Positions 13,101 to 43,098 of a stretch of 64,000 bases of DNA are shown one piece after another (position 1 is the first letter of the stretch; every line of letters starts with the position of its first letter). The stretch is from a virus (taxonomy: Duplodnaviria > Heunggongvirae > Uroviricota > Caudoviricetes). A program made the position numbers and the translations under genes. Below the pieces are notes generated by a model. The model was not told the DNA's origin. It did no database searches and saw only the letters and a program-made list of their open reading frames with translations. Where the stretch lies: the IMG/VR virus record IMGVR_UViG_3300045988_005753. One strand, 5' to 3'.

Positions 13101-13124
13101 ATTTTGAGAGGGCTATTTAGCCCC

Positions 13125-13160: not shown

Positions 13161-13161
13161 G

Positions 13162-13240: not shown

Positions 13241-13247
13241 CAAATTT

Positions 13248-13385: not shown

Positions 13386-13529
13386 ATCTTTGTAGATAAG
13401 TTATTAAGCTTACCTGTGAGTATGCGACCACAAAGGGTGAATGGGTAAATTCTAGATTTAAACCCAAAAAGGCACATCGCTACAGACCTTAAGCAAGTCT
13501 GGGTAGCTTATCTACAAAGATAATTTAAT

Positions 13530-13605
13530 GGAAGTGTAGCAGAATGGTGATGCGGCAGACTTTTAATCTGACAGGCGATGGGTTCGAATCCCTCCACTTC
13601 TACCA
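13530..13605 (+). tRNA. tRNA-Lys (UUU)
   Basis: acceptor GGAAGTG/CACTTCT, loop CTTTTAA, T-loop TTCGAAT, CCA. Confidence 0.7.
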
Positions 13606-13609
13606 ATAT

Positions 13610-13686
13610 GGTTCAGTCGCAGATAAGGTAATGCAAGGGTCTCATAAGCCCTATGAATGTGGGTTCGATTCCCATCTGAACCTCCA
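13610..13686 (+). tRNA. tRNA-Met or tRNA-Ile2 (CAU)
   Basis: acceptor GGTTCAG/CTGAACC, anticodon stem AGGGT/GCCCT, loop CTCATAA, CCA. Confidence 0.7.
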
Positions 13687-13687
13687 A

Positions 13688-13763
13688 GCTGGTATAGTTA
13701 AGAAGGTTATAACACTCCCCTGATAAGGGAACATCGGTGGTTCGATTCCACCTACCAGTACCA
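13688..13763 (+). tRNA. tRNA-Ile (GAU)
   Basis: acceptor GCTGGTA/TACCAGT, D-stem GTTA/TAAC, loop CTGATAA, T-arm GGTGG-TTCGATT-CCACC, CCA. Confidence 0.7.
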
Positions 13764-13778
13764 ATTTCAATAAAGTTG

Positions 13779-13807
13779 TTGACATTGAGATGTGACTACT
13801 TTATAGT
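13779..13807 (+). promoter_or_regulatory. internal sigma70-type promoter within the tRNA array
   Basis: TTGACA, 17-bp spacer, TATAGT. Confidence 0.5.
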
Positions 13808-13973
13808 AACCTTAGTTTTCGTTGCGTAGCGTCTATTTTGCAAATTTAAAATAAATGCAAACGACAATGTTTTTCTGGCAGTAGCTTGATAGGCTAAACA
13901 CCAGTGAGGTCTTCCAATCCCTCATCAAAGAATTTGGCGTACTCGCCCACGGTATGATTAATAAGGTGGGCAT

Positions 13974-14005
13974 CTTTAAGGACTTTCTAAGAGAGTCTTT
14001 AAAGA
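13974..14005 (+). other. conserved hairpin (stem CTTTAAGGA/TCTTTAAAG, loop CTTTCTAAGAGAG)
   Basis: member of the TTCT(T)A(C/A)GAGAG-loop hairpin family. Confidence 0.45.
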
Positions 14006-14009
14006 TAAT

Positions 14010-14086
14010 GCACCCTTAGTTCAATTGGATAGAGCAACGGTCTTCTAAATCGTTAGTTACAGGTTCGAATCCTGTAGGGTGTACCA
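14010..14086 (+). tRNA. tRNA-Arg (UCU)
   Basis: acceptor GCACCCT/AGGGTGT, anticodon stem ACGGT/ATCGT, loop CTTCTAA, T-arm ACAGG-TTCGAAT-CCTGT, CCA. Confidence 0.75.
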
Positions 14087-14228
14087 AATAGTTAGCAGAT
14101 TACTTAGACTGCCTTAGCGGGTCTTCCTGTAGGGAGGTGGTCTGTATCTCATGTTTTCCAGAACATGTAAATAATCTGAGAAGAAGCTTGACAGTGTTGA
14201 GATAACAGGGTAAGCTTCGAATTATAAT

Positions 14229-14311
14229 ATGGGACGATGTTAAGACTCTAAGGCATGAGCAACGGCCTCCAAAACCGTTTCAAAGGGGTTCAACTCCTCC
14301 GTCCCATGCCA
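14229..14311 (+). tRNA. tRNA-like gene, probably tRNA-Trp (CCA), with an enlarged irregular D-region
   Basis: perfect 7-bp acceptor ATGGGAC/GTCCCAT, T-loop TTCAACT, CCA end, anticodon loop CTCCAAA; 83 nt. Confidence 0.5.
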
Positions 14312-14324
14312 AAGTCTTATTAGG

Positions 14325-14414
14325 GGTAGGTAGCGGCTAATGGCAGCCAAACAGTCTTGAAAACTGTTGCCACTGTAGAGATACGGTGAGGGTTCGACTC
14401 CTTTACTTACCGCC
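14325..14414 (+). tRNA. tRNA-Ser (UGA), long variable arm; CCA apparently not encoded
   Basis: acceptor GGTAGGT/ACTTACC, anticodon stem ACAGT/ACTGT, loop CTTGAAA, T-loop TTCGACT. Confidence 0.65.
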
Positions 14415-14565
14415 TAATAAGATTTACTCCGTCCATGCTTGTTCGCATTGTCGGTTTATCCCTCGTGTATTGTCGTACACTGTCAAAGCACCTAGTAGGT
14501 GTCATGGAGAGAGATAATATCAAGCTCTCCAAAGGTTCTAGTCACCGGATTAAACAAGACTATGC

Positions 14566-14588
14566 AAAGACCTAAATAGGTCTTTTTA
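14566..14588 (+). terminator. rho-independent terminator-like hairpin inside the tRNA array
   Basis: AAGACC-TAAATA-GGTCTT followed by TTTTT. Confidence 0.45.
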
Positions 14589-14591
14589 GAG

Positions 14592-14650
14592 GGCTTCTAA
14601 GGTTATTACAGCTTGTTGTGGAACCTTGTTGCTTAGGTTCTTAGAAGTTC
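14592..14650 (+). other. long hairpin (CTTCTAAGG ... CTTAGAAG)
   Basis: 8-bp inverted repeat around a 40-nt loop; related to the CTAAGG hairpin family. Confidence 0.35.
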
Positions 14651-14666
14651 TCTAAAAAGATTTAAT

Positions 14667-14744
14667 GGGAGATTGACGGTAATTGGTAAACCTACCATCC
14701 TTAGAAGTTGGTGTTTGAGGGTTCGAATCCCTTGTCTCCTACCA
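14667..14744 (+). tRNA. tRNA with anticodon UAG (Leu-type) but a short variable arm
   Basis: acceptor GGGAGAT/GTCTCCT, D-loop AATTGGTAA (Leu-like), anticodon stem CCATC/GTTGG, loop CTTAGAA, A73, CCA; 78 nt. Confidence 0.6.
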
Positions 14745-14751
14745 AATTAAT

Positions 14752-14827
14752 GCAGGTGTAGCAAAATGGTTATGCGGCTGACTCTTAATCAGTAAGACGA
14801 TGGGTTCAATTCCCTCCACCTGTACCA
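14752..14827 (+). tRNA. tRNA-Lys (CUU)
   Basis: acceptor GCAGGTG/CACCTGT, anticodon stem GCTGA/TCAGT, loop CTCTTAA, CCA; close paralog of the Lys(UUU) gene. Confidence 0.7.
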
Positions 14828-14833
14828 AACAAT

Positions 14834-14909
14834 GGGGTCATAGTTTATATGGTTAAAATTCGAGTTTTGCAAACTTGGGAACTGAGTTCAATTCTCAGTG
14901 ACTCCACCA
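14834..14909 (+). tRNA. tRNA-Ala (UGC)
   Basis: acceptor GGGGTCA/TGACTCC, anticodon stem CGAGT/ACTTG, loop TTTGCAA, T-arm CTGAG-TTCAATT-CTCAG, CCA. Confidence 0.75.
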
Positions 14910-14915
14910 ATTAGT

Positions 14916-14990
14916 GCATCCATAGTTTAAACGGGAAAATTACAGTCTTCCAAACTGAGGTTGAGGGTTCGATTCCCTCTGGATGCTCCA
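14916..14990 (+). tRNA. tRNA-Gly (UCC)
   Basis: acceptor GCATCCA/TGGATGC, loop CTTCCAA, T-arm GAGGG-TTCGATT-CCCTC, CCA. Confidence 0.7.
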
Positions 14991-14997
14991 AATTAAT

Positions 14998-15073
14998 GCT
15001 CCTATCGTATAATTGGTTATTACGGTTGCCTTGTAAGCAACTTATCAGGGTTCGAGTCCTTGTGGGAGCACCA
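14998..15073 (+). tRNA. tRNA-Thr (UGU)
   Basis: acceptor GCTCCTA/TGGGAGC, anticodon stem GTTGC/GCAAC, loop CTTGTAA, CCA. Confidence 0.75.
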
Positions 15074-15074
15074 A

Positions 15075-15165
15075 TTCAGAGGTCAAGTGAAAGACCGCTT
15101 TGAGTCAACTGAAGACCGTAACAAATTCCACGGAGTTGAGTTAGCGGCACAACTCCAGACCTCTT
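15075..15165 (+). ncRNA. structured spacer element E (long-range stem CAGAGGTC/GACCTCT, internal hairpin GGAGTTG...CAACTCC, GAAGACCGTAACAA motif)
   Basis: inverted repeats read directly; shares the GAAGACCGT core with elements A-D. Confidence 0.35.
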
Positions 15166-15169
15166 TCAT

Positions 15170-15244
15170 ACTCGCTTAGTTTATATGGTAAAACATCACC
15201 CTTACAAGATGAAGAAAAAGGTTCAAGTCCTTTAGTGAGTACCA
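15170..15244 (+). tRNA. tRNA-Val (UAC)
   Basis: acceptor ACTCGCT/AGTGAGT, D-stem GTTT/AAAC, anticodon stem TCACC/GATGA, loop CTTACAA, CCA. Confidence 0.7.
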
Positions 15245-15245
15245 T

Positions 15246-15323
15246 GTTCCAGTATCCCAATTGGCAGAGGATGCAAGCTCAAACCTTGTATTAGTGACGG
15301 TTCGAATCCGTCTTGGAACACCA
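15246..15323 (+). tRNA. tRNA with anticodon CAA (Leu-type) but a short variable arm
   Basis: acceptor GTTCCAG/TTGGAAC, D-loop AATTGGCAGAG (Leu-like), anticodon stem GCAAG/CTTGT, loop CTCAAAC, A73, CCA. Confidence 0.6.
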
Positions 15324-15328
15324 ATTTT

Positions 15329-15404
15329 GCAGGATTAGTTCAAATGGAAAGAGCAACAGTCTACGAAGCTGTTAATAGGGGTTCGAATCCCTTATCCTGC
15401 GCCA
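15329..15404 (+). tRNA. tRNA-Arg (ACG)
   Basis: acceptor GCAGGAT/ATCCTGC, D-stem GTTC/GAGC, anticodon stem ACAGT/GCTGT, loop CTACGAA, CCA. Confidence 0.75.
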
Positions 15405-15421
15405 GATAAAAAGGTGACACT

Positions 15422-15664
15422 ATGCAAACATTAACAGTAGTTGAACATGAAAACTGTGAGAGTATTGAGTTTGTCAGGGTCATTGGTGTTGAACACCACA
15501 TTTTCTTAAAAGTGGGATACTTATGTGACCCCGCTAGAGTAGAAAGATTTATACGTGATTGTTTTGGTGGTAGACATCTGAAGAGTGTTATTTTTGAGAC
15601 AGTTTTACCAGAAGGTTTAGAAACGAATAATAACATTTACCTCCTTACGAGGATTAGACAATGA
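15422..15664 (+). CDS. hypothetical protein embedded in the tRNA array
   Basis: ATG with AGGTGA RBS; ATGA coupling to the next ORF. Confidence 0.45.
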   Translation: MQTLTVVEHENCESIEFVRVIGVEHHIFLKVGYLCDPARVERFIRDCFGGRHLKSVIFETVLPEGLETNNNIYLLTRIRQ

Positions 15665-16218
15665 GATACTTAAAGTATGCTTCATGGATTTTCTTAGCTT
15701 TGTTAGAGCCATTTGCAGCAATCTTAGCAGTTATCTTAGCACCTTTCGTAGTTCCATTCTACAGTGAGAAGAAAGGACATCTACCTTTCGGGTTCAGATG
15801 GATGGAAACTTATGACAACCCAATTGATGGTGATGAAGGTCACGTTAAAAGATGGGCTAATATTAGATGGATTGGTAAACTAGGTGTCTACATGCAAAGA
15901 GTCGGATGGCTCTGGAGAAACAAAGCTTATAACTTCTCTTACCATGTATTAGGGAGAGATGTAAAAGATGTTACTAAGTGGAAAGGTAATATCAACGTAA
16001 GTTCTGACCCTGAAGATAATCAGACAGGTTATCTCCTAATGTGGAACAGTAATGCTTGGGGATTATTCGCTTTTATCCCATCAATTAAAATCTTTGGTAA
16101 ACAATTTTACTGGAGAATTTATATTGGATGGAAACTAAAAAGTGTTGTCCCAGAAGAAAGAGCATTCTCAAGGGAAAGAGTTATGTTGGCATTCTTTATT
16201 CATCCACTGAGAAAGTAA
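15661..16218 (+). CDS. membrane protein embedded in the tRNA array
   Basis: N-terminal hydrophobic segment WIFLALLEPFAAILAVILAPFVVPF; 185 aa. Confidence 0.5.
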   Translation: MRYLKYASWIFLALLEPFAAILAVILAPFVVPFYSEKKGHLPFGFRWMETYDNPIDGDEGHVKRWANIRWIGKLGVYMQRVGWLWRNKAYNFSYHVLGRDVKDVTKWKGNINVSSDPEDNQTGYLLMWNSNAWGLFAFIPSIKIFGKQFYWRIYIGWKLKSVVPEERAFSRERVMLAFFIHPLRK

Positions 16219-16226
16219 AGATTTAA

Positions 16227-16302
16227 AGGGGATTAGTTTACAAGGTTAAAACCTCGGTCTTTGAAATCGAAGAAGTTGGTTCAATTCCAACATCCCCCGC
16301 CA
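16227..16302 (+). tRNA. tRNA-Gln (UUG)
   Basis: acceptor AGGGGAT/ATCCCCC, anticodon stem TCGGT/ATCGA, loop CTTTGAA, T-arm GTTGG-TTCAATT-CCAAC, CCA. Confidence 0.7.
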
Positions 16303-16304
16303 AT

Positions 16305-16383
16305 GCTCCATTACTCCAATTGGCAGAGAGGCCAGACTTAAAATCTGTGTTATGTATCGGTTCGAATCCGATATGGAGTACCA
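16305..16383 (+). tRNA. tRNA with anticodon UAA (Leu-type) but a short variable arm
   Basis: acceptor GCTCCAT/ATGGAGT, D-loop AATTGGCAGAG (Leu-like), loop CTTAAAA, T-arm ATCGG-TTCGAAT-CCGAT, A73, CCA. Confidence 0.6.
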
Positions 16384-16388
16384 AATTT

Positions 16389-16464
16389 AGCGGTATAGCA
16401 TAACTGGCAATGCAGCAGTCTCTGAAGCTGTCTTATTAAGGTTCAAATCCTTATGCCGCTGCCA
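16389..16464 (+). tRNA. tRNA-Gln (CUG)
   Basis: acceptor AGCGGTA/TGCCGCT, anticodon stem GCAGT/GCTGT, loop CTCTGAA, CCA. Confidence 0.65.
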
Positions 16465-16465
16465 C

Positions 16466-16495
16466 TTCTAAGGATTCTTACGAGAGTCCTTAAAT
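16466..16495 (+). other. conserved hairpin (stem TAAGGA/TCCTTA, loop TTCTTACGAGAG)
   Basis: member of the TTCTTACGAG-loop hairpin family. Confidence 0.45.
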
Positions 16496-16571
16496 GTGGC
16501 CTTATCATAAATGGTAATGACCCATGCTGTGAACATGGTCTATACGGGTTCAAATCCCGTAGGTCACCCCA
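16496..16571 (+). tRNA. tRNA-His (GUG)
   Basis: acceptor GTGGCCT/AGGTCAC, D-stem TCAT/ATGA, anticodon stem CCATG/CATGG, loop CTGTGAA, CCA. Confidence 0.75.
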
Positions 16572-16576
16572 ATTTA

Positions 16577-16653
16577 TAGTCCAAGTAGCTTATATGGTTA
16601 AAGCGCGTGTCTGAAAAACATGAGAAGAGGGTTCAAATCCCACTGGACTACCA
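16577..16653 (+). tRNA. tRNA-Phe (GAA)
   Basis: acceptor TAGTCCA/TGGACTA, anticodon stem CGTGT/ACATG, loop CTGAAAA, T-loop TTCAAAT, CCA; 5' end uncertain by 1 nt. Confidence 0.65.
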
Positions 16654-16669
16654 ATTTCAAAGGTGCTTA

Positions 16670-17404
16670 ATGAAAGAGATGACAGAACAAGGTAAGGAGA
16701 TTTTTAATCTCTTAAAAACTGGTAAAGGGTTTTCTAACCCCCTTATTACTGGTGCAGCAGTTCTCGGTGGAACCGTAGCTGCCTCCACATCACTTGTAAG
16801 CTCTATTAGTTCTGTATCAGACCCTACAGTAAAAGATAAGCTTGTTGCTGCTGGACTTACAACAGTTCTGCTTAACAGCTTTACCACGAGTCTGACAAGC
16901 ACTACATCAACTACCAAAACACTGACAGATTACGGTCAAAAGTCCATTGATGAGTTTTCATCACGTATGCAGGTAGCAAAAGGTTATTCTAATGTTATGG
17001 GTGCAGCAGGTGAACAAGTTGGCTGTACACCATTTAGTGGTATTATGGGTGTTGCTACAGAGTATGGTCAAAAAGCTATTGATACGATTAACAGTGCACT
17101 AGACGGTGTTAATGATGTATTAAGTGATTTACAAGACGCTATTGACAAAGGTCTTGATACTATTTCTGATTTAGCTAACCAAGCTGTTAGTAAGATTAAT
17201 GAAGGTATCTCGAAGATTACAGCTTATGCAGATGAAGTTGTGCAGATGATTGAAGAAGAAGCTGCCCTTATTGCAGAGTACCTTAAAACGAATATCAATG
17301 GGTTCTTAGCAGGTATCTTACCAGACTGGTTTGATGATGCTTGTAAAACTGGTGTAATTGACACTATTGCAACACCAGAAATGAAGAACGCATTACAGAA
17401 ATAA
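16670..17404 (+). CDS. hypothetical Ser/Thr-rich protein
   Basis: track ORF starts inside tRNA-Phe; first ATG downstream of the tRNA (16670) has an AAAGGTG RBS. Confidence 0.5.
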   Translation: MKEMTEQGKEIFNLLKTGKGFSNPLITGAAVLGGTVAASTSLVSSISSVSDPTVKDKLVAAGLTTVLLNSFTTSLTSTTSTTKTLTDYGQKSIDEFSSRMQVAKGYSNVMGAAGEQVGCTPFSGIMGVATEYGQKAIDTINSALDGVNDVLSDLQDAIDKGLDTISDLANQAVSKINEGISKITAYADEVVQMIEEEAALIAEYLKTNINGFLAGILPDWFDDACKTGVIDTIATPEMKNALQK

Positions 17405-17405
17405 T

Positions 17406-17498
17406 GGAAGATTAACCCTAAAAGGTAAGGGAGCAGTTTGCTAAACTGCCAGTAGCTGAGAAATCGGTGTACCAGTTCAAGTCTGGTATCTTCCTCCA
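17406..17498 (+). tRNA. tRNA-Ser (GCU), long variable arm
   Basis: 93 nt; acceptor GGAAGAT/ATCTTCC, anticodon stem GCAGT/ACTGC, loop TTGCTAA, T-arm ACCAG-TTCAAGT-CTGGT, CCA. Confidence 0.7.
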
Positions 17499-17502
17499 AT
17501 TT

Positions 17503-17578
17503 GAATCCGTGACAGAAATGGCTATGTGCCTGTCTGCAAAACAGGTTTATAAGGGTTCGAGTCCCTTCGGATTCTCCA
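17503..17578 (+). tRNA. tRNA-Cys (GCA)
   Basis: acceptor GAATCCG/CGGATTC, anticodon stem CCTGT/ACAGG, loop CTGCAAA, T-arm AAGGG-TTCGAGT-CCCTT, CCA. Confidence 0.75.
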
Positions 17579-29280: not shown

Positions 29281-34664
<5,384 letters not shown>

Positions 34665-34665
<1 letters not shown>

Positions 34666-36134
34666 TGGCAGGATTAACTACAACAGGATTACAAACTCTA
34701 AGATATCAGGAAATTTTTGATAATATCAAATCAAGACTTCTTAGAGATATTTCACCAAACCTTGACGTTTCTGAAGATAGCCAATTAGGTCTCTTCCTAG
34801 CTTCAATTGCAAGGTCTTTAGCAGATACACATGAGATTCTATCAGAAATCTATGACGGCGGGACAATTGACAAGGCTGAAGGATTTAACCTTGATGATAT
34901 TACAGCTTTGAATGCTGTATACAGATATGTTGCTCAGGCAACAAGGGGTCAGGTTGAGTTCACTGGAACAACTGGTGCTACCATCTCTTCAACAACAAGA
35001 TTGAGAAGTACTGCTGGAAATATCTTTTATCCAGTTAACAATATTACCCTCACCCCATCATATTGTGTTGAAGCTGTTCTTGAAGTTAACTCTTTACGAA
35101 CTGATGCAGATTATGTTATTATTATTGATAACGTTATTTTCTCATATAAACCAACCTCATCAGACACAATCACCACACTACTAACTAAATTAGCAGAGGT
35201 TATTAATGGTGGTATTGTAGCAAAAGCAGAAGTTATCAATGATGGAGCCTCATTAAGAATCTATAAAGACGAGGGTGATATCATTGCAAGAACAAACCCT
35301 ATGGTTGTTACTGCGACAACGTTTCTGACCTTTACAAAGATTACAACTATCTCAGATGTAGTGGCTGAAGAGGTTGGTGCTATTCCTGCTTTAGCTGGGA
35401 CTCTTATTGAGATTGAGACAACTGTTGATGGTCTTGACAGCATCTATAACAGGTATGACTTAACAACTGGTAGAAACGAAGAAACTGACACAGAACTTAG
35501 ACAGAGATATTTAGAATCCTTAGCAGTTACTGGTGTAGGGACTTTGGATGCAATTGTAGCTGCTGTTAAAAGGGTTCAAGGTGTCTCAGATGCTTCAGGT
35601 GTTGAAAATGATACTGAAGAGACGAACTCAGAAGGTCTTCCACCAAAATCTTTTAAGATTGTCGTAGTCGGTGGTCAAAATGATAATGTTGCTCAAGCAA
35701 TCTGGGATACAAAACCTGCTGGTATTAGAGCTTACGGCTCAATTTTTGGTACAGCCCATGATTTAGGTGGCTTAGCACATAATATTTACTTTAGCAGACC
35801 AACACCAAAATACGCATTTGTTAAAGTATCTTACTCATTATATGACGAAGAAAGCTTGACAATCCCTGAAGAGGATATCAGAGACAGTATTGTACAAGGT
35901 ATTAATGCCTACGGAAGAACTCTTAAGGTTGGTAATGACGTTATCCCTAACAGAATCTACGGATATATCTATGATGTAATTAAAGGTATTGAGATTAATG
36001 AGGTGAAAGTAGCATTATCAAACAGCCAATCAGTTCCACCTAGTGACGGACAATATACTACAGCAAGAATTACTGTTGACGGTGACCAATATACTGTTTG
36101 GGAAAGTAGCCAGTATACCATCACTAAGGAGTAA
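34665..36134 (+). CDS. baseplate J-like protein
   Basis: 489-aa ORF in the canonical position. Confidence 0.55.
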
Positions 36135-36136
36135 TA

Positions 36137-36991
36137 ATGTTTGAAAAGATTGATAGTGTTTATTATAAAACACTTGATGAAAGGACTGTAACACAGTTTA
36201 AAGATAAATTTATCTATACAAGTATCTTGAAAGCAATCACTGATGAGCTACAAACATTAGAGGATGTTTGCTGGCAGATGCACACAGAGAGAAATATCAG
36301 GACGTCAGTAGGCCAACAACTTGATAATATTGGCTCACTGATTAAAGTTCCTAGACCTTTAGGTGCAGATGATGAAACATATAGAGCTATGCTTTATATC
36401 CAAATCTTCCTAAGACGTTCTGACACTACTCCAACATTCTTGCAAAAAGCAATTATGACATTGTATGGTGCAACTTTCTCTCAGATTTTTGAGCATATTA
36501 CTCCTAAGACTGGTGGTATCGTTATCCGTATTAACACCAGAAAAAGCGTTCTAGATGCTGCATATACGCTGTCAAAGATTTCTGCAACAACTACTGGCTC
36601 CGCTGTTATCTTAAGAGATGTTACTTTAAATGGGACTGCTTGGACACCTGTAGAGGTTGCTGATTCATCACTTGCTATTGTTGATGATAAAGAGAACTGG
36701 TTTGTAACTGATGCTAACAGAGGTCTTGTCACAAATAATACTGGTGGCTCTCTGGAGTCCAACTTAGTAGGTAGCCTTGCAGATGCTGGTGTTATTGATG
36801 GTTACTTTAAGGTTGACAGAGCAGCAAACTCACAGAGTGATGATTATATGACTGTAGATAGGTCCAATAATAGTGGCTATTTCATCGTTGGTAAAGAAGC
36901 TATTGCAGATGGTGCATATGGAATCATGGCTGAGGTTGCACAAATTGTCAAAGGCAGAAAAGATAAATCACAACAAGAAGGAAATTCTTAA
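36137..36991 (+). CDS. baseplate/tail fibre attachment protein (positional)
   Basis: 284-aa ORF. Confidence 0.5.
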
Positions 36992-37293
36992 TGGCAGTTT
37001 TAAATTGGTCTACAAATGAAGTAGATACTGATGGTAATCAGTTAAAAGTTTTACCACCACCGGAAGTTCAAGAGACAGGTCTTTTAAAGGGTGAGCCTAT
37101 GGGTAGACAGTGGTTCAACTATATTATCAACTACCTGCTGAATAAAGTAAATGGCACTGTTGGTGAAGTTCGTTCATATGCAACTGAGCAACCAGATTTA
37201 GTAGCTAATGGCTGGAATCTCATTAAGTCTGAGACAGGGACTGCATCAACAAGTACAAGAAACCTTTACACATATGAATATGTAGGAGCTTAA
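36991..37293 (+). CDS. hypothetical tail protein
   Basis: 100-aa coupled ORF. Confidence 0.45.
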
Positions 37294-37295
37294 TA

Positions 37296-38471
37296 ATGGC
37301 AGTAGGTGAAATTCAAATTAGTGCCTTGCCACAAGCGGCCTTACCAATTGATTTGAGTGATATCTTCCATCTTAAGCAAGGTGTTGAGGATAAAAGATGT
37401 ACGCTTGAACAGTTGTTAGCACCTCACGCATCTTTGAGGAATAACCCTCATGGTGTAACGAAATCGCAAGTAGGTCTTGATAATGTTATTAACTCTCTTC
37501 AATTAGTTGCAGCTAATAACTTGTCAGACATTGTAAATGTTGCTGAGGCAAGAGCAAATCTACAAATTATGTCGTCAGAGGAAGTGAATAACTTAATTCA
37601 GCAACATATTGACGACAAAAGTAACCCACATAACACAACGAAAGCACAGGTCGGTTTAAGTAATGTTCAGAACTGGACAACATCTAATCTGTACAATGAA
37701 GATGCTGATAAGTACGCTACCGCGAAAGCAGTTAATAATTTATACAAAGCTATCCAAGCATCATATCCAGTGGGGACTATTCATCTGTCTGTTAACTCTG
37801 CTAACCCATCCACTTACTTGCTTTGTGGAGGTACTTGGGAGTTAGTTTCTAAAGGTAGAGCACTAGTTGGTTATGATACAGATTCCAGACCTGTTGGTTC
37901 AACGTTTGGTTCTCAGACTGTAGCATTAACAAATAATAATTTACCAGCACATACTCACTCTATCTATCTAACAGGTGGTGGTCATACACACTCTGCAAGT
38001 GTATCTATCTCTAGTTTTGATTATGGTTCAAAAAGTACATCAACTTTTGATTACGGTACAAAAACGACTAATAGTGCTGGTGCTCACACTCACACGTTTA
38101 GTGGCACAACAAGTAATGCTGGTAACCACAACCATAGAGTTCCTATGAGGGGTAATGATAGGGGTGGCACAAACGCTATTACTGCATCTGCTGATGCTGG
38201 TGTTGGTAATGCTATGTATACTGATTTAGCTGGTGCTCACACCCATAGCTTCTCAGGTACAACTGCATCATCTGGTGCTCATAGCCATACTGTCGCAATT
38301 GGTGCTCACAGCCACACTGTTAATATTGGTTCGCACAGTCATACAGGCACTGTTACTGTTTCTAGCTCTGAGCATACACACTCAGGGACATCTGGTTCTG
38401 TTGGTGGTGGTCAAGCTTTCAGTGTTGAGCAGCCATCTTTTGTAGTGTATGTGTGGCAGAGAACAGCTTAA
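37296..38471 (+). CDS. tail fibre protein with His-x-His C-terminal tip
   Basis: two copies of the NPH..TK.QVGL.NV phage fibre repeat; C-terminal repeats AHTHS, GHTHS, AHSHTV, SHSHTG. Confidence 0.75.
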   Translation: MAVGEIQISALPQAALPIDLSDIFHLKQGVEDKRCTLEQLLAPHASLRNNPHGVTKSQVGLDNVINSLQLVAANNLSDIVNVAEARANLQIMSSEEVNNLIQQHIDDKSNPHNTTKAQVGLSNVQNWTTSNLYNEDADKYATAKAVNNLYKAIQASYPVGTIHLSVNSANPSTYLLCGGTWELVSKGRALVGYDTDSRPVGSTFGSQTVALTNNNLPAHTHSIYLTGGGHTHSASVSISSFDYGSKSTSTFDYGTKTTNSAGAHTHTFSGTTSNAGNHNHRVPMRGNDRGGTNAITASADAGVGNAMYTDLAGAHTHSFSGTTASSGAHSHTVAIGAHSHTVNIGSHSHTGTVTVSSSEHTHSGTSGSVGGGQAFSVEQPSFVVYVWQRTA

Positions 38472-38480
38472 TTTCTTTAC

Positions 38481-38501
38481 AGGGGCTTTATAGCCCCTTT
38501 T
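38481..38501 (+). terminator. weak terminator-like hairpin between the two fibre genes
   Basis: AGGGGCT-TTAT-AGCCCCT followed by TTT. Confidence 0.4.
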
Positions 38502-38517
38502 AAGAGGAAAATTCATA

Positions 38518-41067
38518 ATGGCAGATTACAAATTGAGTCAATTAAACTCAATCGACACAATTCGTTCAGAAGACCTATTGCACATCAGAGTTAAGAAAAG
38601 ACCTGAAATGTTGGGTGATGAAGACCGCAGAATGACCTATCAAGACTTCTTAGCTTCCTTCAAACTAGAAAGGTTTGTTCAGATTGCTGGAAGTAATATG
38701 ACTGGGGATTTAGGTATTGTCAAGTTACTTTATGGTGGTAAGGCAGTATTTGACCCTACAGGTTCTTCTGAAATTACTATTGGGGATGTTTTAAAGACTT
38801 TTAAACTTAATGCAAATGGTCTTAAACTAACTATTGCAGATGCTTCAAGGTCAGCAACTGTTTATCATACTCTGAATAAGCCAAGTCCTAATGAGCTTGG
38901 TATGAGAACTAATGAAGAGAATGACGCAAGATATGCAAGACTTGCTATCACAAACACATTCTCTGGAACTCAAAATATTCAAGGTGATGCTAACTTACTT
39001 CGCCTTAGAAACCAAAATGCAAATAATGCACAATACATCGAAGGTGTAAACCTAGATGGTTCGGCTAGATGGTGGGTTGGTATTGGTAGTAATGGCTCTG
39101 ATGAAGTAAAGCTGTACAATAACAAATACAACTCAGCCTTGACTGTTGCAAGTAATGTCTCTGTTAATAAGTCTTTAGCAATCACTGGTCAAGTTCAACC
39201 TTCAGATTTCTCTAACTTAGATGCTAGATACTTCACTCAGACAGTTGCTAATCAGAGATTTGCACAGTTAGCTGCTAATAATAATTTCACGGGCACTAAC
39301 ACGTTTAGTAGAAATCTAACCATCATTAGTGACAGTGCTGCTTTAAGGTTGAAAAATGCAACAGCTAGCTCACTATTCATTCATGGTGTTGACTCTCAGA
39401 ACACTAACAGGTGGTATGTAGGGAACGGGGATAACACAGCCTCTGTGCTGCTACACAACTATGTACACGGTTCAAATATCAGGCTTGATAATGGCTATAT
39501 CTCAGTCAACCAGAACTTCAGAATCACTGGTCAAGTTCAACCTTCGGATTGGACTAATATTGACTCTAGATATATTCCGGCAGCAACATTAAGTACGATT
39601 GCAAGAACTAATGCACAAAATACTTTTAATGGTGTACAGAAAGTTGTTACGGATAATGAAGCCCTAATTGTGAAAAACTCTACTCAGAACAGACCATTGT
39701 ATATCCGTGGTGTGGACACTGCTAATGTGTCAAGGTGGTGGGTAGGTGTTGGTAGGGCAGATAATAATGATGTAACCCTAAATAACAGTTATTCTGGAAC
39801 CCAATTGGTTCTCGGGAATACAACATCATACATTAACAAAACATTGACTATTGCTGGACAAGTTCAACCTTCAGATTTCTCTAACTTAGATGCTAGATAC
39901 TTTACGCAAAGTGCTAGTGATAGTAGATACCTAAGAATCAGAAGCACTAGCTTCAATGTGGGAAACACTGATAAGTGGGCTAAAATTGCCACTGTTGTGA
40001 TGCCACAATCAGCATCCACTGCTGTTATTGAGGTATTTGGTGGGTCAGGTTTTAATATTAATACACCAAACCAAGCAGGTAAATGTGAAATTGTTCTGCG
40101 AACTTCAAATAACAATCCAAAGGGCTTAAATGTTGTTGCTTGGAGAACATCAGAGAACACCATTATCAGGGATATTGGTTATGTGAATACTTCTGGAGAC
40201 ACCTATGATATTTACTATCTTGCTGGTACGCATCAAAACAGCACAACGACAAGGGTTCAGTCTTCTAGTAATGCAAGTGTACAGTTGTTTGAAGTCCCAC
40301 AGACATTTGATGATGCTCCACAAGGTATTGTGAAGGGTACAATTGCAAAATACTACACAAGTTTGCAAAAACCAACCCCTTCAGATATTGGTGCATACAC
40401 TAAAGCAGAGACTGACCAGAAAATTGCAGAAGCAATTAGTGACTCTACAGACCTGAATAAAATCTATCCAGTAGGTATTGTAACGTGGTTTAACAGTAAT
40501 GTTAACCCTAATACAGCACTTCCTGGTCTAACTTGGACGTACCTGAACAATGGTGTTGGTAGAACTATTAGAATTGCAGCAGCAAACGGTTCAGATGTTG
40601 CTACAACTGGTGGTTCAGACTCTGTAACGTTATCTGTTGGTAACTTACCTTCACATACACACAGTTTCTCTGCTACCACTTCATCATTTGATTATGGTAC
40701 TAAGACTTCTAGCACAACTGGTAACCATAACCACAACAGAGGTACTATGGAGATTACTGGTTCATTTGGTTACTTCAGGAGTGACACTAGCAGCTTCTAC
40801 ACAGCAAGTGGTGCATTCCACCTCGGTAGTCAGGCAGGTTCTAAAGGGTTTACTGGTAATAACTTTACTAATGGTATCCCTGTCAACTTCAACGCATCAA
40901 GAAACTGGTCTGGTGTAACAAATACAACAGGTAACCATAGCCACACTGTAGGTATTGGTGCTCACAGTCACACTGTTAGTGGTAACACAGGTGGTACTGG
41001 TTCTGGTTCAGCATTTAGTGTTACTAACCAGTTCTATAAGCTAATGGCTTGGGTAAGAACTGCTTAA
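38518..41067 (+). CDS. long tail fibre protein with three internal tandem repeats and a His-x-His C-terminal tip
   Basis: repeated ITGQVQPSDFSNLDARYFTQ and WWVG.G blocks; C-terminus SHTHSFS..NHNHN..NHSHTVGIGAHSHTV; ends ..WVRTA like the shorter fibre. Confidence 0.75.
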   Translation: MADYKLSQLNSIDTIRSEDLLHIRVKKRPEMLGDEDRRMTYQDFLASFKLERFVQIAGSNMTGDLGIVKLLYGGKAVFDPTGSSEITIGDVLKTFKLNANGLKLTIADASRSATVYHTLNKPSPNELGMRTNEENDARYARLAITNTFSGTQNIQGDANLLRLRNQNANNAQYIEGVNLDGSARWWVGIGSNGSDEVKLYNNKYNSALTVASNVSVNKSLAITGQVQPSDFSNLDARYFTQTVANQRFAQLAANNNFTGTNTFSRNLTIISDSAALRLKNATASSLFIHGVDSQNTNRWYVGNGDNTASVLLHNYVHGSNIRLDNGYISVNQNFRITGQVQPSDWTNIDSRYIPAATLSTIARTNAQNTFNGVQKVVTDNEALIVKNSTQNRPLYIRGVDTANVSRWWVGVGRADNNDVTLNNSYSGTQLVLGNTTSYINKTLTIAGQVQPSDFSNLDARYFTQSASDSRYLRIRSTSFNVGNTDKWAKIATVVMPQSASTAVIEVFGGSGFNINTPNQAGKCEIVLRTSNNNPKGLNVVAWRTSENTIIRDIGYVNTSGDTYDIYYLAGTHQNSTTTRVQSSSNASVQLFEVPQTFDDAPQGIVKGTIAKYYTSLQKPTPSDIGAYTKAETDQKIAEAISDSTDLNKIYPVGIVTWFNSNVNPNTALPGLTWTYLNNGVGRTIRIAAANGSDVATTGGSDSVTLSVGNLPSHTHSFSATTSSFDYGTKTSSTTGNHNHNRGTMEITGSFGYFRSDTSSFYTASGAFHLGSQAGSKGFTGNNFTNGIPVNFNASRNWSGVTNTTGNHSHTVGIGAHSHTVSGNTGGTGSGSAFSVTNQFYKLMAWVRTA

Positions 41068-41074
41068 TCCCTTG

Positions 41075-41103
41075 TTGACTGATTGTTAAGATGGTGTTAA
41101 TAT
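41075..41103 (+). promoter_or_regulatory. sigma70-type promoter upstream of the holin-like gene
   Basis: TTGACT, 17-bp spacer, TAATAT; overlapped by inverted repeat AGATGGTG ... CACCATCT. Confidence 0.55.
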
Positions 41104-41146
41104 TCTTTATGGGTATTCTCACCATCTTGGCTGATGAGGTGATTAA

Positions 41147-41341
41147 ATGCCTACAATCCTAGCAATTCTTCTAAAAAATCTAGGTAGCTTCTTCTGGAAA
41201 CTCATTTTATCCCTTCTGAGTGAATACATGATTGAGAAAGTGTTCTTTAAGCTTGCAAGATACCTTGCGAGTAAAACAGACACACCTATTGATGATGAGT
41301 TCGTAGATAACTTAGAAAAAGCTTTTAAGGGGGAGAAATAA
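41147..41341 (+). CDS. holin-like small membrane protein
   Basis: 64 aa, N-terminal hydrophobic segment, charged C-terminus, GAGGTGA RBS. Confidence 0.45.
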   Translation: MPTILAILLKNLGSFFWKLILSLLSEYMIEKVFFKLARYLASKTDTPIDDEFVDNLEKAFKGEK

Positions 41342-41713
41342 ATGAAGTGGCTAGAGGAAGCTTTTAAAAATAATATTGGTGCAATTGTAGTTGGTATTTT
41401 TAGTGTTATCGGGATGTATACCACTATGCAAGTTTCAAGTGGTAAGCAAGAAGTGTCTGTCACAACAAAGTTACAGCAGCTAGATAATTATTCCAAAAGT
41501 AACTATTCAGCTATTCGTGATTTACAGTCTGACATGAGACTAATTCAGCTAGGGATGGAGAACCAGAAAGTCCAGTTAGAGAATGTTAAGGGTGAGAATG
41601 CGAAACTTACCAAAACTCTTGATAAATTCTCTGACAGTGTGAACAATCTGGCCCAATCAGTATCAGCCTTGCAAGCTATTACTGAAAAGAACACAAAGAA
41701 TACTGAAAAATAA
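41342..41713 (+). CDS. membrane-anchored coiled-coil protein (spanin or antiholin candidate)
   Basis: N-terminal TM segment IGAIVVGIFSVIGMY then coiled-coil-like region; coupled to the holin-like ORF. Confidence 0.4.
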   Translation: MKWLEEAFKNNIGAIVVGIFSVIGMYTTMQVSSGKQEVSVTTKLQQLDNYSKSNYSAIRDLQSDMRLIQLGMENQKVQLENVKGENAKLTKTLDKFSDSVNNLAQSVSALQAITEKNTKNTEK

Positions 41714-41720
41714 AATTTTA

Positions 41721-41748
41721 AGGCTCCCGTAAAAAGGAGCCTTTTTTG
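41721..41748. terminator. bidirectional rho-independent terminator between convergent operons
   Basis: GGCTCC ... GGAGCC hairpin flanked by T-runs on both strands. Confidence 0.65.
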
Positions 41749-41750
41749 TT

Positions 41751-42650
41751 TTATTTACCTACTGACAAAGGTGCTTCAATCTTCCCTGCATGTTGGTAGT
41801 TGTTAATACCACCAATAAAATCACTTGCAGTAAGATGTTTCAGGTCACTTAAAGTATTAAGTGGTAGACCAATCTCAAAAGTTGGTGCATGGAACTCTTC
41901 ATTGTTCATCAGTTCATAAACCTGCTTCATATGGTTCTGATAAATCTGAGTATCTCCAAAGACACCTATCAAGTACCGTGGAGTGTATCCAGTCATCTTG
42001 CAAAGAACTTCTAAGATGAAGCCATAAGACGCAATGTTAAATGGAAGTCCTAAAAAGGTGTCTACAGAACGCTGATACCATTGCAAATCCACTTCACCTT
42101 CATTAGTGATATAAATCTGAAACAGAACATGACAAGGTGCTAAAGCCATTGAGTTTGCTGCAATATCTGCTGCATTCCAAGCATTAACAAGCATGTAACG
42201 GTCTGTGATATCACCCTTCATCTTCGTTACTAAGGTCTCTAGTTGGTCTACAACACAACCATTATGACCTTCGAAGTTTCTCCACTGGACCCCATAGATT
42301 CTCCCACCTGCATCTTCTAACCAATCTTGTTCAGAAGAATAATTAGAACTTAACCAGCGTTTAAAATCATCTGACCAGATAGTCCAGCGTTCCCCATCAT
42401 TTTCACCCCAAGTACGGTAACGGAGTTCACCAAGTTTATTCTCACCATTCAGGAACCATAAAGCTTCCCCAATAACTTGCCGTGTAAACACCTGTTTAGA
42501 TGTTAAGAGTGGGAAACCAGTGCGCATATCAAAACGAAATTTTGGTGGAGCAAATGCAGAGATAACATCTCCAGTTCGTGTAGTACGCAGTTCACCAACG
42601 GATAAAACATGGTTCAGGATATTTTTGTAACTTGTATCTGCTTGTGACAT
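41751..42650 (-). CDS. thyA: thymidylate synthase
   Basis: active-site region LAPCHVLFQIYI and overall ThyA-like sequence; 299 aa. Confidence 0.85.
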   Translation of the reverse strand: MSQADTSYKNILNHVLSVGELRTTRTGDVISAFAPPKFRFDMRTGFPLLTSKQVFTRQVIGEALWFLNGENKLGELRYRTWGENDGERWTIWSDDFKRWLSSNYSSEQDWLEDAGGRIYGVQWRNFEGHNGCVVDQLETLVTKMKGDITDRYMLVNAWNAADIAANSMALAPCHVLFQIYITNEGEVDLQWYQRSVDTFLGLPFNIASYGFILEVLCKMTGYTPRYLIGVFGDTQIYQNHMKQVYELMNNEEFHAPTFEIGLPLNTLSDLKHLTASDFIGGINNYQHAGKIEAPLSVGK

Positions 42651-42651: not shown

Positions 42652-43098
42652 TCAAAAGTGCCCTTTTACTTGTGGAACATAAATTTCAAAGGTGGCTTTA
42701 CCATCCTCTGATGGTTTTGACTGTACCTTTGTAAATACACGGTTATCATACAGCTTCTCAAAGAAGTTTTCAAAAGGTAAATACACAGTGGCCTCTTCAG
42801 TAACTTTATGGAAAACTGTATGGAAAACTACACCATCAAGATTCTGGTAAAGCTCTTTGATGAAGTGGTCTTTCACAATCTGACTGCTAGTTGTTTCCAG
42901 CTTAATGTTCGAGATTGCTGAACCTACAGCCATATAGCCCATGACACGTTTCTTCTCAGTATGCTTAATCTTACCATCTTTGTAAGCCATAATGAGATTG
43001 GAGAGAATCTTCACACCATAATACTTTTCAAGGTGAGTGGGTACGCCATAAAAACCTAATGCGAAGTTTTCAGAGTGGATAATGTTTTCACGTTTCAT
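42652..43098 (-). CDS. hypothetical protein
   Basis: 148-aa ORF coupled to thyA. Confidence 0.5.
   Translation of the reverse strand: MKRENIIHSENFALGFYGVPTHLEKYYGVKILSNLIMAYKDGKIKHTEKKRVMGYMAVGSAISNIKLETTSSQIVKDHFIKELYQNLDGVVFHTVFHKVTEEATVYLPFENFFEKLYDNRVFTKVQSKPSEDGKATFEIYVPQVKGHF

What the first reader, a model, noticed from the sequence alone, without database searches (positions are those of the whole stretch)
37296..41067. Two tail fibre genes with homologous His-x-His tip domains
Both fibres end in repeated HTHS, HSHTV and NHNHN motifs and a conserved terminal ..WVRTA segment, resembling the metal-coordinating His-x-His repeats of T4-type long tail fibre tips. The short fibre also carries two NPH..TK.QVGL.NV fibre repeats. 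Two fibres with related receptor-binding tips suggest dual or switchable receptor specificity.
Basis: partly seen in the sequence, partly recalled or inferred. Interest (0 to 1): 0.45.

Follow-up and report, generated by a model that had tools for sequence, protein, structure and literature searches.

The report
Two known Felixounavirus tail fibres

Summary
ORF 37296-38471 (391 aa) has nine HxH motifs and two NPH..TK.QVGL.NV repeats. ORF 38518-41067 (849 aa) has four HxH motifs. The tips are homologous to each other (32% identity, E 8e-17).

The window is a Felixounavirus about 97% identical in DNA to Escherichia phage wV8. The genes are orthologues of wV8 genes 82/83, Felix O1 gp76/gp77 and Bas63 gp26 (STF)/gp27 (LTF). 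Their gp37 homology was reported in 2010 and 2015. Cryo-EM papers from 2025 (Sf14, Bas63) show both fibres on the virion together. The Bas63 paper describes collar-needle-head tips with HxH motifs.

I confirm this by sequence: the STF tip matches T4 gp37 (PDB 2XGF) at E 1.8e-26 and the LTF tip at E 7e-7. The His columns are nearly invariant in homologues, and the variable trough lies between them, where the head should be.

"Dual" receptor recognition is plausible because the two heads are unrelated here. "Switchable" is not supported: I found no invertible segment, template repeat or cassette.

One modest addition: the LTF keeps only 4 of T4's 7 His sites and carries a rare 67-aa His-free head, shared at 80% identity with Mu-like E. 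coli prophage fibres.

Verdict: already known, low interest.

The parts
36991..37293 (+). 100-aa protein, orthologue of Bas63 gp25 'LTF platform', the trimer to which the long fibre attaches.
   Evidence: 87% identical to bas63_0025 with the same gene order. The role comes from the Bas63 cryo-EM paper. PHROG 4141, no Pfam hit.
37296..38471 (+). Short tail fibre (STF), 391 aa. Orthologue of wV8 gene 82, Felix O1 gp76 and Bas63 gp26.
   Evidence: 99.5% identical to wV8 gene 82 and 75.8% to Bas63 gp26. PHROG 2097 tail fibre, E 2e-139. Pfam Gp10_C 67 bits.
37296..37430 (+). STF N-terminal baseplate-binding region (about aa 1-45), containing the motif EDKRCT at aa 31-36.
   Evidence: It is the most conserved part of the protein (0.81-0.94 identity to the query among 21 homologues). 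The motif and its role are described in the Sf14 and Bas63 papers. The assignment is inferred by orthology.
37443..37667 (+). Two NPH..TK.QVGL.NV repeats (aa 50-64 and 110-124), 60 aa apart, separated by predicted helices. This is the STF shaft.
   Evidence: Pattern match. N50, H52, L121 and N126 are nearly invariant in 42 homologues. The AF2 model has helices at 66-78, 82-88 and 94-106. [quoted passage not shown] No Pfam family covers the repeat.
37728..37949 (+). STF collar domain (about aa 145-218), of the T4 gp10 C-terminal / gp37 collar type.
   Evidence: Pfam Gp10_C covers aa 154-276. PDB hits to 2XGF and to gp10 (2FKK). This is the best-predicted part of the AF2 model (pLDDT 84-89).
37950..38135 (+). 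STF descending needle strand (aa 219-280), with HxH at 219, 230, 264 and 278 and two FDYG.K motifs.
   Evidence: It aligns with T4 gp37 sites 883, 915 and 929, plus one extra site at aa 230.
38136..38237 (+). STF head region (aa 281-314), hypervariable and the presumed receptor contact.
   Evidence: It is the conservation trough (0.24-0.35) flanked by conserved His boxes. It aligns with the T4 gp37 head.
38238..38468 (+). STF ascending needle strand (HxH at 315, 329, 338, 347 and 360) and the C-terminal strand ...AFSVEQPSFVVYVWQRTA that returns to the collar.
   Evidence: Pfam Phage_fiber (the 14-aa His-box repeat) scores 20.7 bits in 5 stretches.
38481..38501 (+). Conserved GC hairpin plus T-tract between the two fibre genes. 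It is annotated as a rho-independent terminator in wV8.
   Evidence: Sequence. RNA fold -16.5 kcal/mol, z -3.1. The stem is conserved and the loop varies in wV8, Felix O1, VpaE1 and Bas63. wV8 annotation. The consensus scan did not call it because it has only 4 T.
38518..41067 (+). Long tail fibre (LTF), 849 aa. Orthologue of wV8 gene 83, Felix O1 gp77 and Bas63 gp27.
   Evidence: 91.4% identical to wV8 gene 83. 61% (aa 1-472) and 70% (aa 610-849) identical to Bas63 gp27. PHROG 4277 full-length match.
38905..39927 (+). LTF shaft: three repeats of about 110 aa of the gp37_trimer / T7 gp17 pyramid-like type, each ending ...ITGQVQPSD(F/W)(S/T)N(L/I)D(A/S)RY...
   Evidence: Pfam gp37_trimer 268 bits in 3 stretches. 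PDB hit to T7 gp17 (4A0T) at aa 275-344. DNA repeat family D1 with spacings of 342 and 327 nt.
39928..40377 (+). LTF middle domain (about aa 471-620) of unknown fold.
   Evidence: It matches only tail-fibre PHROGs (3299, 21552, 22609, 11029). No Pfam or PDB sequence match.
40378..40653 (+). LTF collar domain (about aa 621-712).
   Evidence: Pfam Gp10_C at 23 bits, below the cut-off of 27. YPVG...W...GR...GGSDSVTL...NLP is conserved in 55 homologues. AF2 pLDDT is 82-88 here.
40654..40734 (+). LTF descending needle strand (aa 713-739), with HxH at 713 and 737 and one FDYGTK motif.
40735..40935 (+). LTF head region (aa 740-806): 67 aa with no HxH motif (one lone His, H768), starting RGTMEITG and ending NASRNWSG. 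It occupies the positions of T4 gp37 His sites 929 and 966.
   Evidence: Alignments. Conservation trough 0.05-0.18. 80.6% identical to Mu-like E. coli prophage fibres. Only 9 representatives among 1.84 billion proteins.
40936..41064 (+). LTF ascending needle strand (HxH at 807 and 816) and the C-terminal strand ...GSAFSVTNQFYKLMAWVRTA.
   Evidence: The last 42 residues are identical in Felix O1, VpaE1 and Bas63 LTFs.

Best explanation
The two ORFs are the short (STF) and long (LTF) tail fibres of a wV8-like Felixounavirus, a Felix O1-type myophage of E. coli O157:H7.

By orthology with the Bas63 and Sf14 cryo-EM structures, each protein forms a homotrimer. Six copies of each fibre sit on the baseplate at the same time. 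The STF binds wedge protein 2 (window 34665-36134). The LTF binds the platform trimer (window 36991-37293).

Each fibre ends in a T4 gp37-type tip. After a collar domain, the chain runs down a thin needle, forms a small head, and runs back up to the collar. In the trimer, each HxH motif would supply six histidines that bind one metal ion on the needle axis (Fe2+ in T4). That gives up to nine possible sites in the STF and four in the LTF.

The hypervariable head between the descending and ascending His boxes is the receptor-binding part. The receptor is most likely LPS core or O-antigen sugars, as for other members of the genus.

In this phage the two heads are unrelated. The virion therefore probably recognises two different surface epitopes, either together or in sequence. 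It does not switch between them.

Shown here: gene identity, homology to gp37, conservation of the His columns, and the position of the variable region. Inferred: trimer formation, metal binding, the receptors, and the order of binding.
For: Identity of the phage and genes:
- The region is 97% identical in DNA to wV8, with the wV8 gene order and 'tail fiber protein' annotation.
- STF is 99.5% and LTF 91.4% identical to wV8 genes 82 and 83.
- Identity to Bas63: wedge 2 94.9%, wedge 1 83.2%, platform 87%, STF 75.8%, LTF 61-70%, in the same gene order.

The gp37-type tip:
- PDB 2XGF matches STF at E 1.8e-26 and LTF at E 7e-7.
- In the alignment, all seven T4 HxH sites are kept in the STF, plus two extra. 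Four are kept in the LTF. The C-terminal ...R.A end is also shared.
- Pfam hits: Gp10_C, gp37_trimer x3 and the Phage_fiber His-box repeat.
- His columns are 54-55/55 in LTF-tip homologues and mostly 33-42/42 in STF homologues; the weakest, aa 264, is 25/42.
- The conservation minimum lies exactly between the descending and ascending His boxes. This is what a down-and-back hairpin with a variable head predicts.

Published support:
- Bas63 STF and LTF both carry a collar-needle-head tip with HxH motifs. They measure 430 A and 630 A and are both on the baseplate (PMC12609058).
- Sf14 has two fibre sets that 'may bind different receptors' (PMC11821841).
- The gp37 homology of both Felix O1-type fibres was reported in 2010 and 2015.
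- The genus uses LPS as its receptor.

Two different heads: the STF and LTF heads share no similarity here. DNA identity between the two genes is limited to His-box stretches of 46 nt or less.
Against: - AlphaFold2 monomer models were poor (mean pLDDT 61 and 65, below 50 in the heads). Foldseek against the PDB gave no hit at E <= 0.001. The needle fold is therefore supported by sequence only.
- The LTF collar scores below Pfam's cut-off (23 vs 27 bits).
- The LTF has lost three of T4's seven His sites, so its distal part may not be a metal-stapled needle at all.
- T4 gp37 needs the chaperones gp38 and gp57. The Mu-like prophage fibre with the same LTF head is followed by a Caudo_TAP chaperone. 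I found no gp38 homologue in the window. How these tips fold is therefore unexplained.
- No receptor data exist for either fibre of this phage. In Felix O1 the two fibres carry nearly the same head, so two fibres need not mean two receptors.
Confidence: 0.88

Rival explanations
1. Redundant rather than dual recognition. Both fibres bind the same receptor or overlapping parts of the same LPS molecule. Having two fibre lengths only raises avidity or gives a T4-like sequence: the long fibre makes the first reversible contact and the short fibre then locks on.
For: In Felix O1 the STF and LTF share a 270-nt stretch at 81% DNA identity covering the distal needle and head, and the head sequences are nearly identical. 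The genus is known to depend on LPS only. T4 sets the precedent for sequential use of long and short fibres.
Against: In this window, as in Bas63 and VpaE1, the two heads are unrelated. They differ in length here (34 vs 67 aa) and only short His-box DNA matches remain.
Confidence: 0.3
2. Switchable specificity. The phage alternates between the two tips or diversifies them, by DNA inversion (as in the Mu G segment), a diversity-generating retroelement, or frequent gene conversion between the two homologous tips.
For: The two genes share His-box coding stretches of up to 54 nt at 81% and 43 nt at 88% that could in principle recombine. Heads have clearly been exchanged between fibres and between phages over evolutionary time.
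Against: The genes are tandem and co-oriented, each with its own RBS and start codon. There is no inverted repeat longer than 23 nt around them. There is no further copy of either tip in the 64-kb window that could serve as template or cassette. Both proteins are seen together on virions of relatives. The nearly identical wV8 locus has no invertase or reverse transcriptase annotated within about 6 kb either side of the fibre genes.
Confidence: 0.03
3. The HxH motifs are conserved mainly as 'His-box' recombination linkers and structural glycine/histidine turns, not as metal ligands. The LTF tip in particular is not a metal-stapled needle.
For: The conserved flanks are the same in LTFs whose heads differ completely: wV8-type, Felix O1-type, a T4-like head in VpaE1, and Bas63-type. 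This fits recombination at the His boxes. The LTF lacks three of seven sites.
Against: Both histidines of each motif are nearly invariant at the protein level across homologues of only 40-50% identity. That indicates selection on the residues themselves. In T4 these same aligned residues bind iron (citing Bartual 2010). The two roles are not mutually exclusive.
Confidence: 0.1

Closest known systems
Escherichia phage wV8 genes 82 and 83 (tail fiber proteins), and the same genes in E. coli O157 typing phages 1, 8, 11, 12 and 15, and in HY02 and MET-P1-301
   Same: Same genes in the same locus. STF differs at 2 of 391 residues. The STF tip is 100% identical to MET-P1-301. The LTF tip is 98.7% identical to wV8.
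   Different: The LTF has a recombinant patch at aa 253-335, inside the second shaft repeat, where most residues differ from wV8. Three substitutions (T757A, H768Y, F778Y) lie in the LTF head.
Bas63 (JohannRWettstein) gp26 STF and gp27 LTF, cryo-EM 2025 (PMC12609058); Sf14 gp52/gp53 (PMC11821841)
   Same: Orthologous fibres with the same neighbours (wedge 2, wedge 1, platform, STF, LTF), the same N-terminal binding motif, and the same collar-needle-head tip with HxH motifs.
   Different: The number of His sites differs: STF 9 here vs 7 in Bas63, LTF 4 here vs 6. The heads are unrelated in sequence, and the LTF head here is about twice as long.
T4 gp37 receptor-binding tip (PDB 2XGF)
   Same: Significant sequence homology through collar, needle and C-terminal strand. 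The HxH motifs align with the seven iron-binding motifs. The variable head is at the turn.
   Different: The tips sit on single-protein fibres attached directly to a simple Mu/P2-like baseplate, not on a four-protein jointed fibre. There is no gp38 homologue in the window. The STF has two extra His sites and the LTF has three fewer, with a different, larger head.
Tail fibres of Mu-like E. coli prophages (P0091/P0111, 344 aa; e.g. in O104:H4 strains)
   Same: They carry the same rare His-free head as the LTF, 80.6% identical over 67 aa, between the same His boxes.
   Different: The N-terminus is short and different (Phage_fiber_2). The C-terminal end is of T4 gp37 type (...NIAFNYIVRLA). The gene is followed by a Caudo_TAP assembly chaperone, which is absent here.
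T7 gp17 pyramid domain (PDB 4A0T) / Pfam gp37_trimer
   Same: The three ~110-aa shaft repeats of the LTF match this domain.
   Different: In the LTF it is a repeated shaft module, not the domain next to the receptor-binding tip.

Membership tests
Felixounavirus STF/LTF pair (Bas63 gp26/gp27, Felix O1 gp76/gp77) | Full-length sequence similarity to the named fibres. | tested here: met
   STF is 99.5% identical to wV8 and 75.8% to Bas63. LTF is 91.4% identical to wV8 and 61-70% to Bas63. Tips are 68-74% identical to Felix O1 and VpaE1.
Felixounavirus STF/LTF pair (Bas63 gp26/gp27, Felix O1 gp76/gp77) | Gene order: baseplate J-like wedge, wedge 1, 100-aa platform, STF, LTF, two small ORFs, then thymidylate synthase on the opposite strand. 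| tested here: met
   The order is the same in the window, wV8, Felix O1, VpaE1 and Bas63.
Felixounavirus STF/LTF pair (Bas63 gp26/gp27, Felix O1 gp76/gp77) | Both fibres present together on the virion as trimers, six of each. | not testable with these tools
   Known only from cryo-EM of Bas63 and Sf14. Inferred here by orthology.
T4 gp37-type receptor-binding tip | Significant sequence similarity to the crystallised tip (2XGF). | tested here: met
   STF E 1.8e-26 over aa 145-362. LTF E 7e-7 over aa 707-828. BLASTP against full gp37 gives 1.9e-26 and 1.4e-10.
T4 gp37-type receptor-binding tip | A collar domain (Gp10_C / tail-collar type) directly before the needle. | tested here: met
   STF: Gp10_C at 67 bits against a cut-off of 27. 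LTF: only 23 bits, but the collar motifs are conserved in 55 homologues, most of which carry PF21939 in precomputed Pfam.
T4 gp37-type receptor-binding tip | HxH motifs on both the descending and the ascending strand, aligned with the seven Fe-binding motifs of gp37, around a variable head. | tested here: met
   STF keeps 7 of 7 and has 2 extra. LTF keeps 4 of 7. The His columns are nearly invariant. The variable trough lies between them.
T4 gp37-type receptor-binding tip | Intertwined homotrimeric needle with metal ions on the axis. | tested here: inconclusive
   Only monomer AlphaFold2 was available. pLDDT was 61 and 65, and there was no Foldseek hit at E <= 0.001. Metal content cannot be tested here.
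T4 gp37-type receptor-binding tip | Dependence on a dedicated chaperone encoded next to the fibre gene (gp38 in T4; a Tfa/TAP protein in Mu- and P2-like phages). | tested here: not met
   tblastn of T4 gp38 against the window gives nothing better than E 0.2. The two downstream ORFs are small proteins of unknown function (PHROGs 402 and 4038), not TAP. The Sf14 paper also reports no chaperone homologue. Only 64 kb of a genome of about 88 kb was visible.
Switchable tail-fibre systems (Mu/P1 invertible segment; diversity-generating retroelement) | Inverted repeats flanking alternative fibre ends plus an invertase, or a template repeat plus a reverse transcriptase. | tested here: not met
   The longest inverted repeat in 36000-42000 is 23 nt at 78%. 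There is no extra copy of either tip-coding region in the window. No such gene is annotated within about 6 kb either side of the fibre genes in wV8.

The most novel reading that the evidence does not exclude
The wV8-type LTF tip may be a structurally remodelled gp37 tip. It has lost the two metal sites next to the head and the last ascending site. It has gained a rare 67-aa His-free head domain (RGTMEITG...FYTASGAF...NASRxWSG) that moves as a cassette between Felixounavirus LTFs, some STFs and Mu-like Enterobacterales prophage fibres. If so, this head would have a new receptor-binding fold. Together with the unrelated STF head, it would give wV8-like phages genuine two-receptor recognition of E. 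coli O157:H7, and both tips would fold without any gp38- or TAP-type chaperone.
Probability: 0.3. Interest if true: 0.35.

Novelty: already known. Interest (0 to 1): 0.15.

Why it matters
Tail-fibre tips set host range, so they are the parts to swap when retargeting phages for therapy, typing or detection. For this locus the basic facts are already published: two fibres, both with gp37-like histidine-stapled tips.

This analysis adds a residue-level map for the wV8/O157:H7 lineage. It marks where the conserved His-box flanks end and the variable heads begin (STF aa 281-314, LTF aa 740-806). It shows that the two heads differ in this phage but are nearly the same in Felix O1. It also shows that the LTF head is a rare cassette shared with Mu-like prophages.

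These boundaries are the natural cut sites for head-swap experiments. The result does not change any current view of phage biology.

Tried and rejected
1. AlphaFold2 monomer models of the LTF tip (250 aa, 55-sequence alignment) and of the full STF (42 sequences) had mean pLDDT of 61 and 65. Confidence was good only in the collar. The needles came out as long low-confidence hairpins. Foldseek against the PDB returned only weak hits: T4 gp10 and the Bizionia C24 tip at E 0.02-2, plus pore-toxin hairpins. I treat this as uninformative, not negative, because the fold is an obligate intertwined trimer.

2. T4 gp38 chaperone homologue in the window: none.

3. Invertible segment or DGR: none.

4. I thought the LTF head might be shared with the gp37 of the T-even-like Mosigvirus 'O157 typing phage 3', which gave a 45% tblastn hit. 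The alignment shows that only the His-box flanks match, not the head.

5. PDB and Pfam searches with the LTF middle domain (aa 470-630), the LTF N-terminus and the STF N-terminal 145 aa gave nothing significant. The one exception is a weak NLSD..N...AR.NL repeat match to a 'short tail fiber gp92' entry, 9ZD7, at E 3e-4. The NPH repeat belongs to no Pfam family.

6. The Bas63 gene-essentiality preprint (PMC11482910) says nothing useful about the two fibres.

7. The consensus terminator scan missed the intergenic hairpin. I checked it by eye, by folding and by alignment instead.

Full report
**What is there**

The stated coordinates hold two tandem + strand ORFs: 37296-38471 (391 aa) and 38518-41067 (849 aa).

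- The short protein has nine HxH motifs between aa 219 and 362. It also has two copies of NPH..TK.QVGL.NV, at aa 50 and 110.
- The long protein has four HxH motifs, at aa 713, 737, 807 and 816.
- The proteins end in ...VYVWQRTA and ...LMAWVRTA.
- No other ORF in the window is rich in HxH.
- The two C-terminal regions align at 32% identity over about 220 residues, E 8e-17.

NHNHN and WVRTA are exact only in the long protein; the short one has NHNHR and WQRTA.

**What phage this is**

- The 3.8-kb region is about 97% identical in DNA to Escherichia phage wV8 and to several E. coli O157 typing phages, all Felixounavirus.
- In wV8 the two genes are numbers 82 and 83, annotated as tail fibre proteins. 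They sit after the baseplate genes and before two small ORFs and thymidylate synthase. The window has the same order.
- The short protein differs from wV8 gene 82 at 2 residues. The long one is 91.4% identical to gene 83. Most of its differences fall in a patch at aa 253-335 that looks recombinant.
- I fetched phage Bas63 (MZ501086) and compared it. Wedge 2 is 94.9% identical, wedge 1 83.2%, the 100-aa 'LTF platform' 87%, STF (gp26) 75.8%, and LTF (gp27) 61-70%.

**What is already published**

- The Felix O1 genome paper (2010) reported that gp76 and gp77 both resemble T4 gp37 at the C-terminus.
- The VpaE1 paper (2015) said the same for gp74 and gp75. It noted conserved N-termini and variable C-termini.
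- The Sf14 cryo-EM paper (2025) showed two sets of fibres folded up along the tail and proposed that they may bind different receptors.
- The Bas63 cryo-EM paper (2025) describes a 430-A STF and a 630-A LTF. [quoted passage not shown] It counts seven motifs in the STF and six in the LTF. My own count on the Bas63 sequences gives the same numbers.

The finding as worded is thus already in the literature for orthologous genes.

**Independent test of the gp37-like tip**

- A sequence search of the PDB with the STF hits the T4 gp37 tip (2XGF) at E 1.8e-26 over aa 145-362, and also the gp10 C-terminal domain. The LTF hits 2XGF at E 7e-7 over aa 707-828. Its shaft hits T7 gp17.
- Pfam gives Gp10_C for the STF. 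For the LTF it gives three gp37_trimer repeats plus sub-threshold Gp10_C and gp37_C. The 14-residue Phage_fiber His-box repeat scores 20.7 bits on the STF tip (cut-off 20) and 16.7 bits on the LTF tip.
- In a three-way alignment with T4 gp37, the STF keeps all seven T4 HxH sites and adds two, at aa 230 and 360.
- The LTF keeps four. The two sites next to the head are replaced by GSFGYF and NASRNW, and the last ascending site is deleted.
- Both proteins share the C-terminal strand ending R-x-A.
- In 55 LTF-tip homologues the His columns are 54-55/55. In 42 STF homologues most are 33-42/42 and the weakest, aa 264, is 25/42.
- Conservation drops to 0.24-0.35 at STF aa 281-310 and to 0.05-0.18 at LTF aa 740-800. 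These troughs lie exactly between the descending and ascending His boxes. This is what a chain that runs down, forms a variable head and runs back would show.

**Structure prediction was not decisive**

Only single-chain AlphaFold2 was available. The models had mean pLDDT of 61 (LTF tip) and 65 (STF). Only the collar was confident. Foldseek found nothing at E <= 0.001. For an intertwined trimer this neither supports nor refutes the fold.

**Dual or switchable?**

I found nothing that could switch the tips.

- The genes are co-oriented, each with its own start.
- The longest inverted repeat in 36-42 kb is 23 nt.
- Neither tip-coding region has another copy in the window. The only matches are His-box stretches of 46 nt or less shared between the two genes.

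Dual recognition is plausible. Relatives carry both fibres at once, and the two heads here are unrelated: 34 aa in the STF against a 67-aa His-free head in the LTF.

Two fibres do not by themselves imply two receptors. In Felix O1 the STF and LTF share 270 nt at 81% identity, covering the distal needle and head, and the head sequences are nearly the same.

The genus is reported to use LPS. No receptor is known for either fibre of wV8-like phages.

**Head cassettes**

The LTFs of the window, Felix O1, VpaE1 and Bas63 have identical last 42 residues and the same upstream frame (...SSFDYGTK...). Their heads are entirely different. VpaE1 carries the T4 gp37 head almost unchanged.

The window's LTF head recurs in several other settings:

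- It is 80.6% identical in 344-aa tail fibres of Mu-like E. coli prophages. The context there is Mu gp45-gp48 homologues, the fibre, then a Caudo_TAP chaperone.
- It is about 75% identical in DNA in 15 of 5,426 complete E. coli genomes, including O104:H4 strains.
- It is 52% identical in a Providencia prophage fibre and 38% identical inside an STF-type protein.
- A full HMMER scan of 1.84 billion representatives found only nine proteins with this head at E <= 0.001. The query was short, so sensitivity was limited.

Phages with more than 90% identical tips are almost all O157:H7 isolates.

This is the familiar mosaic pattern of fibre tips, with exchange at conserved His boxes. It is the only part of the analysis I did not find stated in the papers I read.

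**Open point: chaperones**

T4 gp37 needs gp57 and gp38 to fold, and the prophage fibre with the same head has a TAP gene next to it. The window has no gp38 homologue. The two downstream ORFs are small proteins of unknown function. The Sf14 authors also found no chaperone. The rest of the genome, about 24 kb, was not visible.

**Verdict**

The finding is a correct reading of a known feature in a phage nearly identical to sequenced ones. The structural interpretation is supported by sequence. 'Dual' is plausible, and 'switchable' is not supported. Novelty: already known. Interest: low.

Noticed in passing
window 42652-43098 (- strand): Relative to wV8 the window lacks 1,238 bp. The deletion removes most of the dihydrofolate reductase gene (frd), genes 88 and 89, and the 3' end of gene 90. 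What remains is an in-frame 148-aa fusion ORF: gene 90 N-terminus (about aa 1-88) joined to the last 60 aa of frd, with the junction at ...LDGV|VFHTV. None of 216 Felixounavirus records spans this junction in one piece, so the deletion looks unique to this phage or assembly.
   Followed up: yes
window 38481-38501: There is a GC hairpin plus a short T-tract between the STF stop codon and the LTF start codon. The fold is -16.5 kcal/mol, z -3.1. The stem is conserved and the loop varies in wV8, Felix O1, VpaE1 and Bas63. It is annotated as a terminator in wV8. It might lower LTF expression relative to STF, and the Bas63 paper reports partial LTF occupancy.
   Followed up: partly
window 39274-39522 (LTF aa 253-335): Inside the second shaft repeat of the LTF there is a mosaic patch where most residues differ from wV8. 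The flanks are 96-98% identical in DNA. This indicates a recombination event within the shaft, not the tip.
   Followed up: partly
L004 (Felix O1) 1851-2120 and 4310-4579: In Felix O1 itself the STF and LTF genes share 270 nt at 81% identity, covering the distal needle and head. Both fibres therefore carry almost the same head (GGRYGGDSIGGKHRV.VSGTEQVSSVAGDHSHT). This is not the case in the window, Bas63 or VpaE1.
   Followed up: partly
L007 8001-9610 (Mu-like prophage, E. coli GCA_024380535.1): A 344-aa prophage fibre carries the same rare head as the window's LTF, but its C-terminal end is like T4 gp37. It is followed by a Caudo_TAP chaperone gene. The Felixounavirus locus has no such gene.
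   Followed up: partly
window 33623-34246 (nt 34184-34192): The 207-aa baseplate spike has its own HxH motif ([11 protein letters not shown]188/H190). These are the positions reported as the likely iron site of the Bas63 puncturing apparatus.
   Followed up: partly
window 12371-17578: There is a cluster of 26 tRNA genes on the + strand, upstream of the structural module. Felix O1 is reported to have 22.
   Followed up: no
window 36972-36998, 37277-37303, 38499-38525: The ribosome-binding sites and first codons of three successive genes (platform, STF, LTF) form a 27-nt repeat family (..AGGA..N..TAATGGCAG.). All three proteins begin with Met-Ala.
   Followed up: no
protein P0009: A 276-aa partial protein labelled Pseudomonas aeruginosa is 94% identical to the LTF tip. 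It sits on an 829-bp contig. This is probably phage contamination of that assembly rather than a Pseudomonas gene.
   Followed up: no
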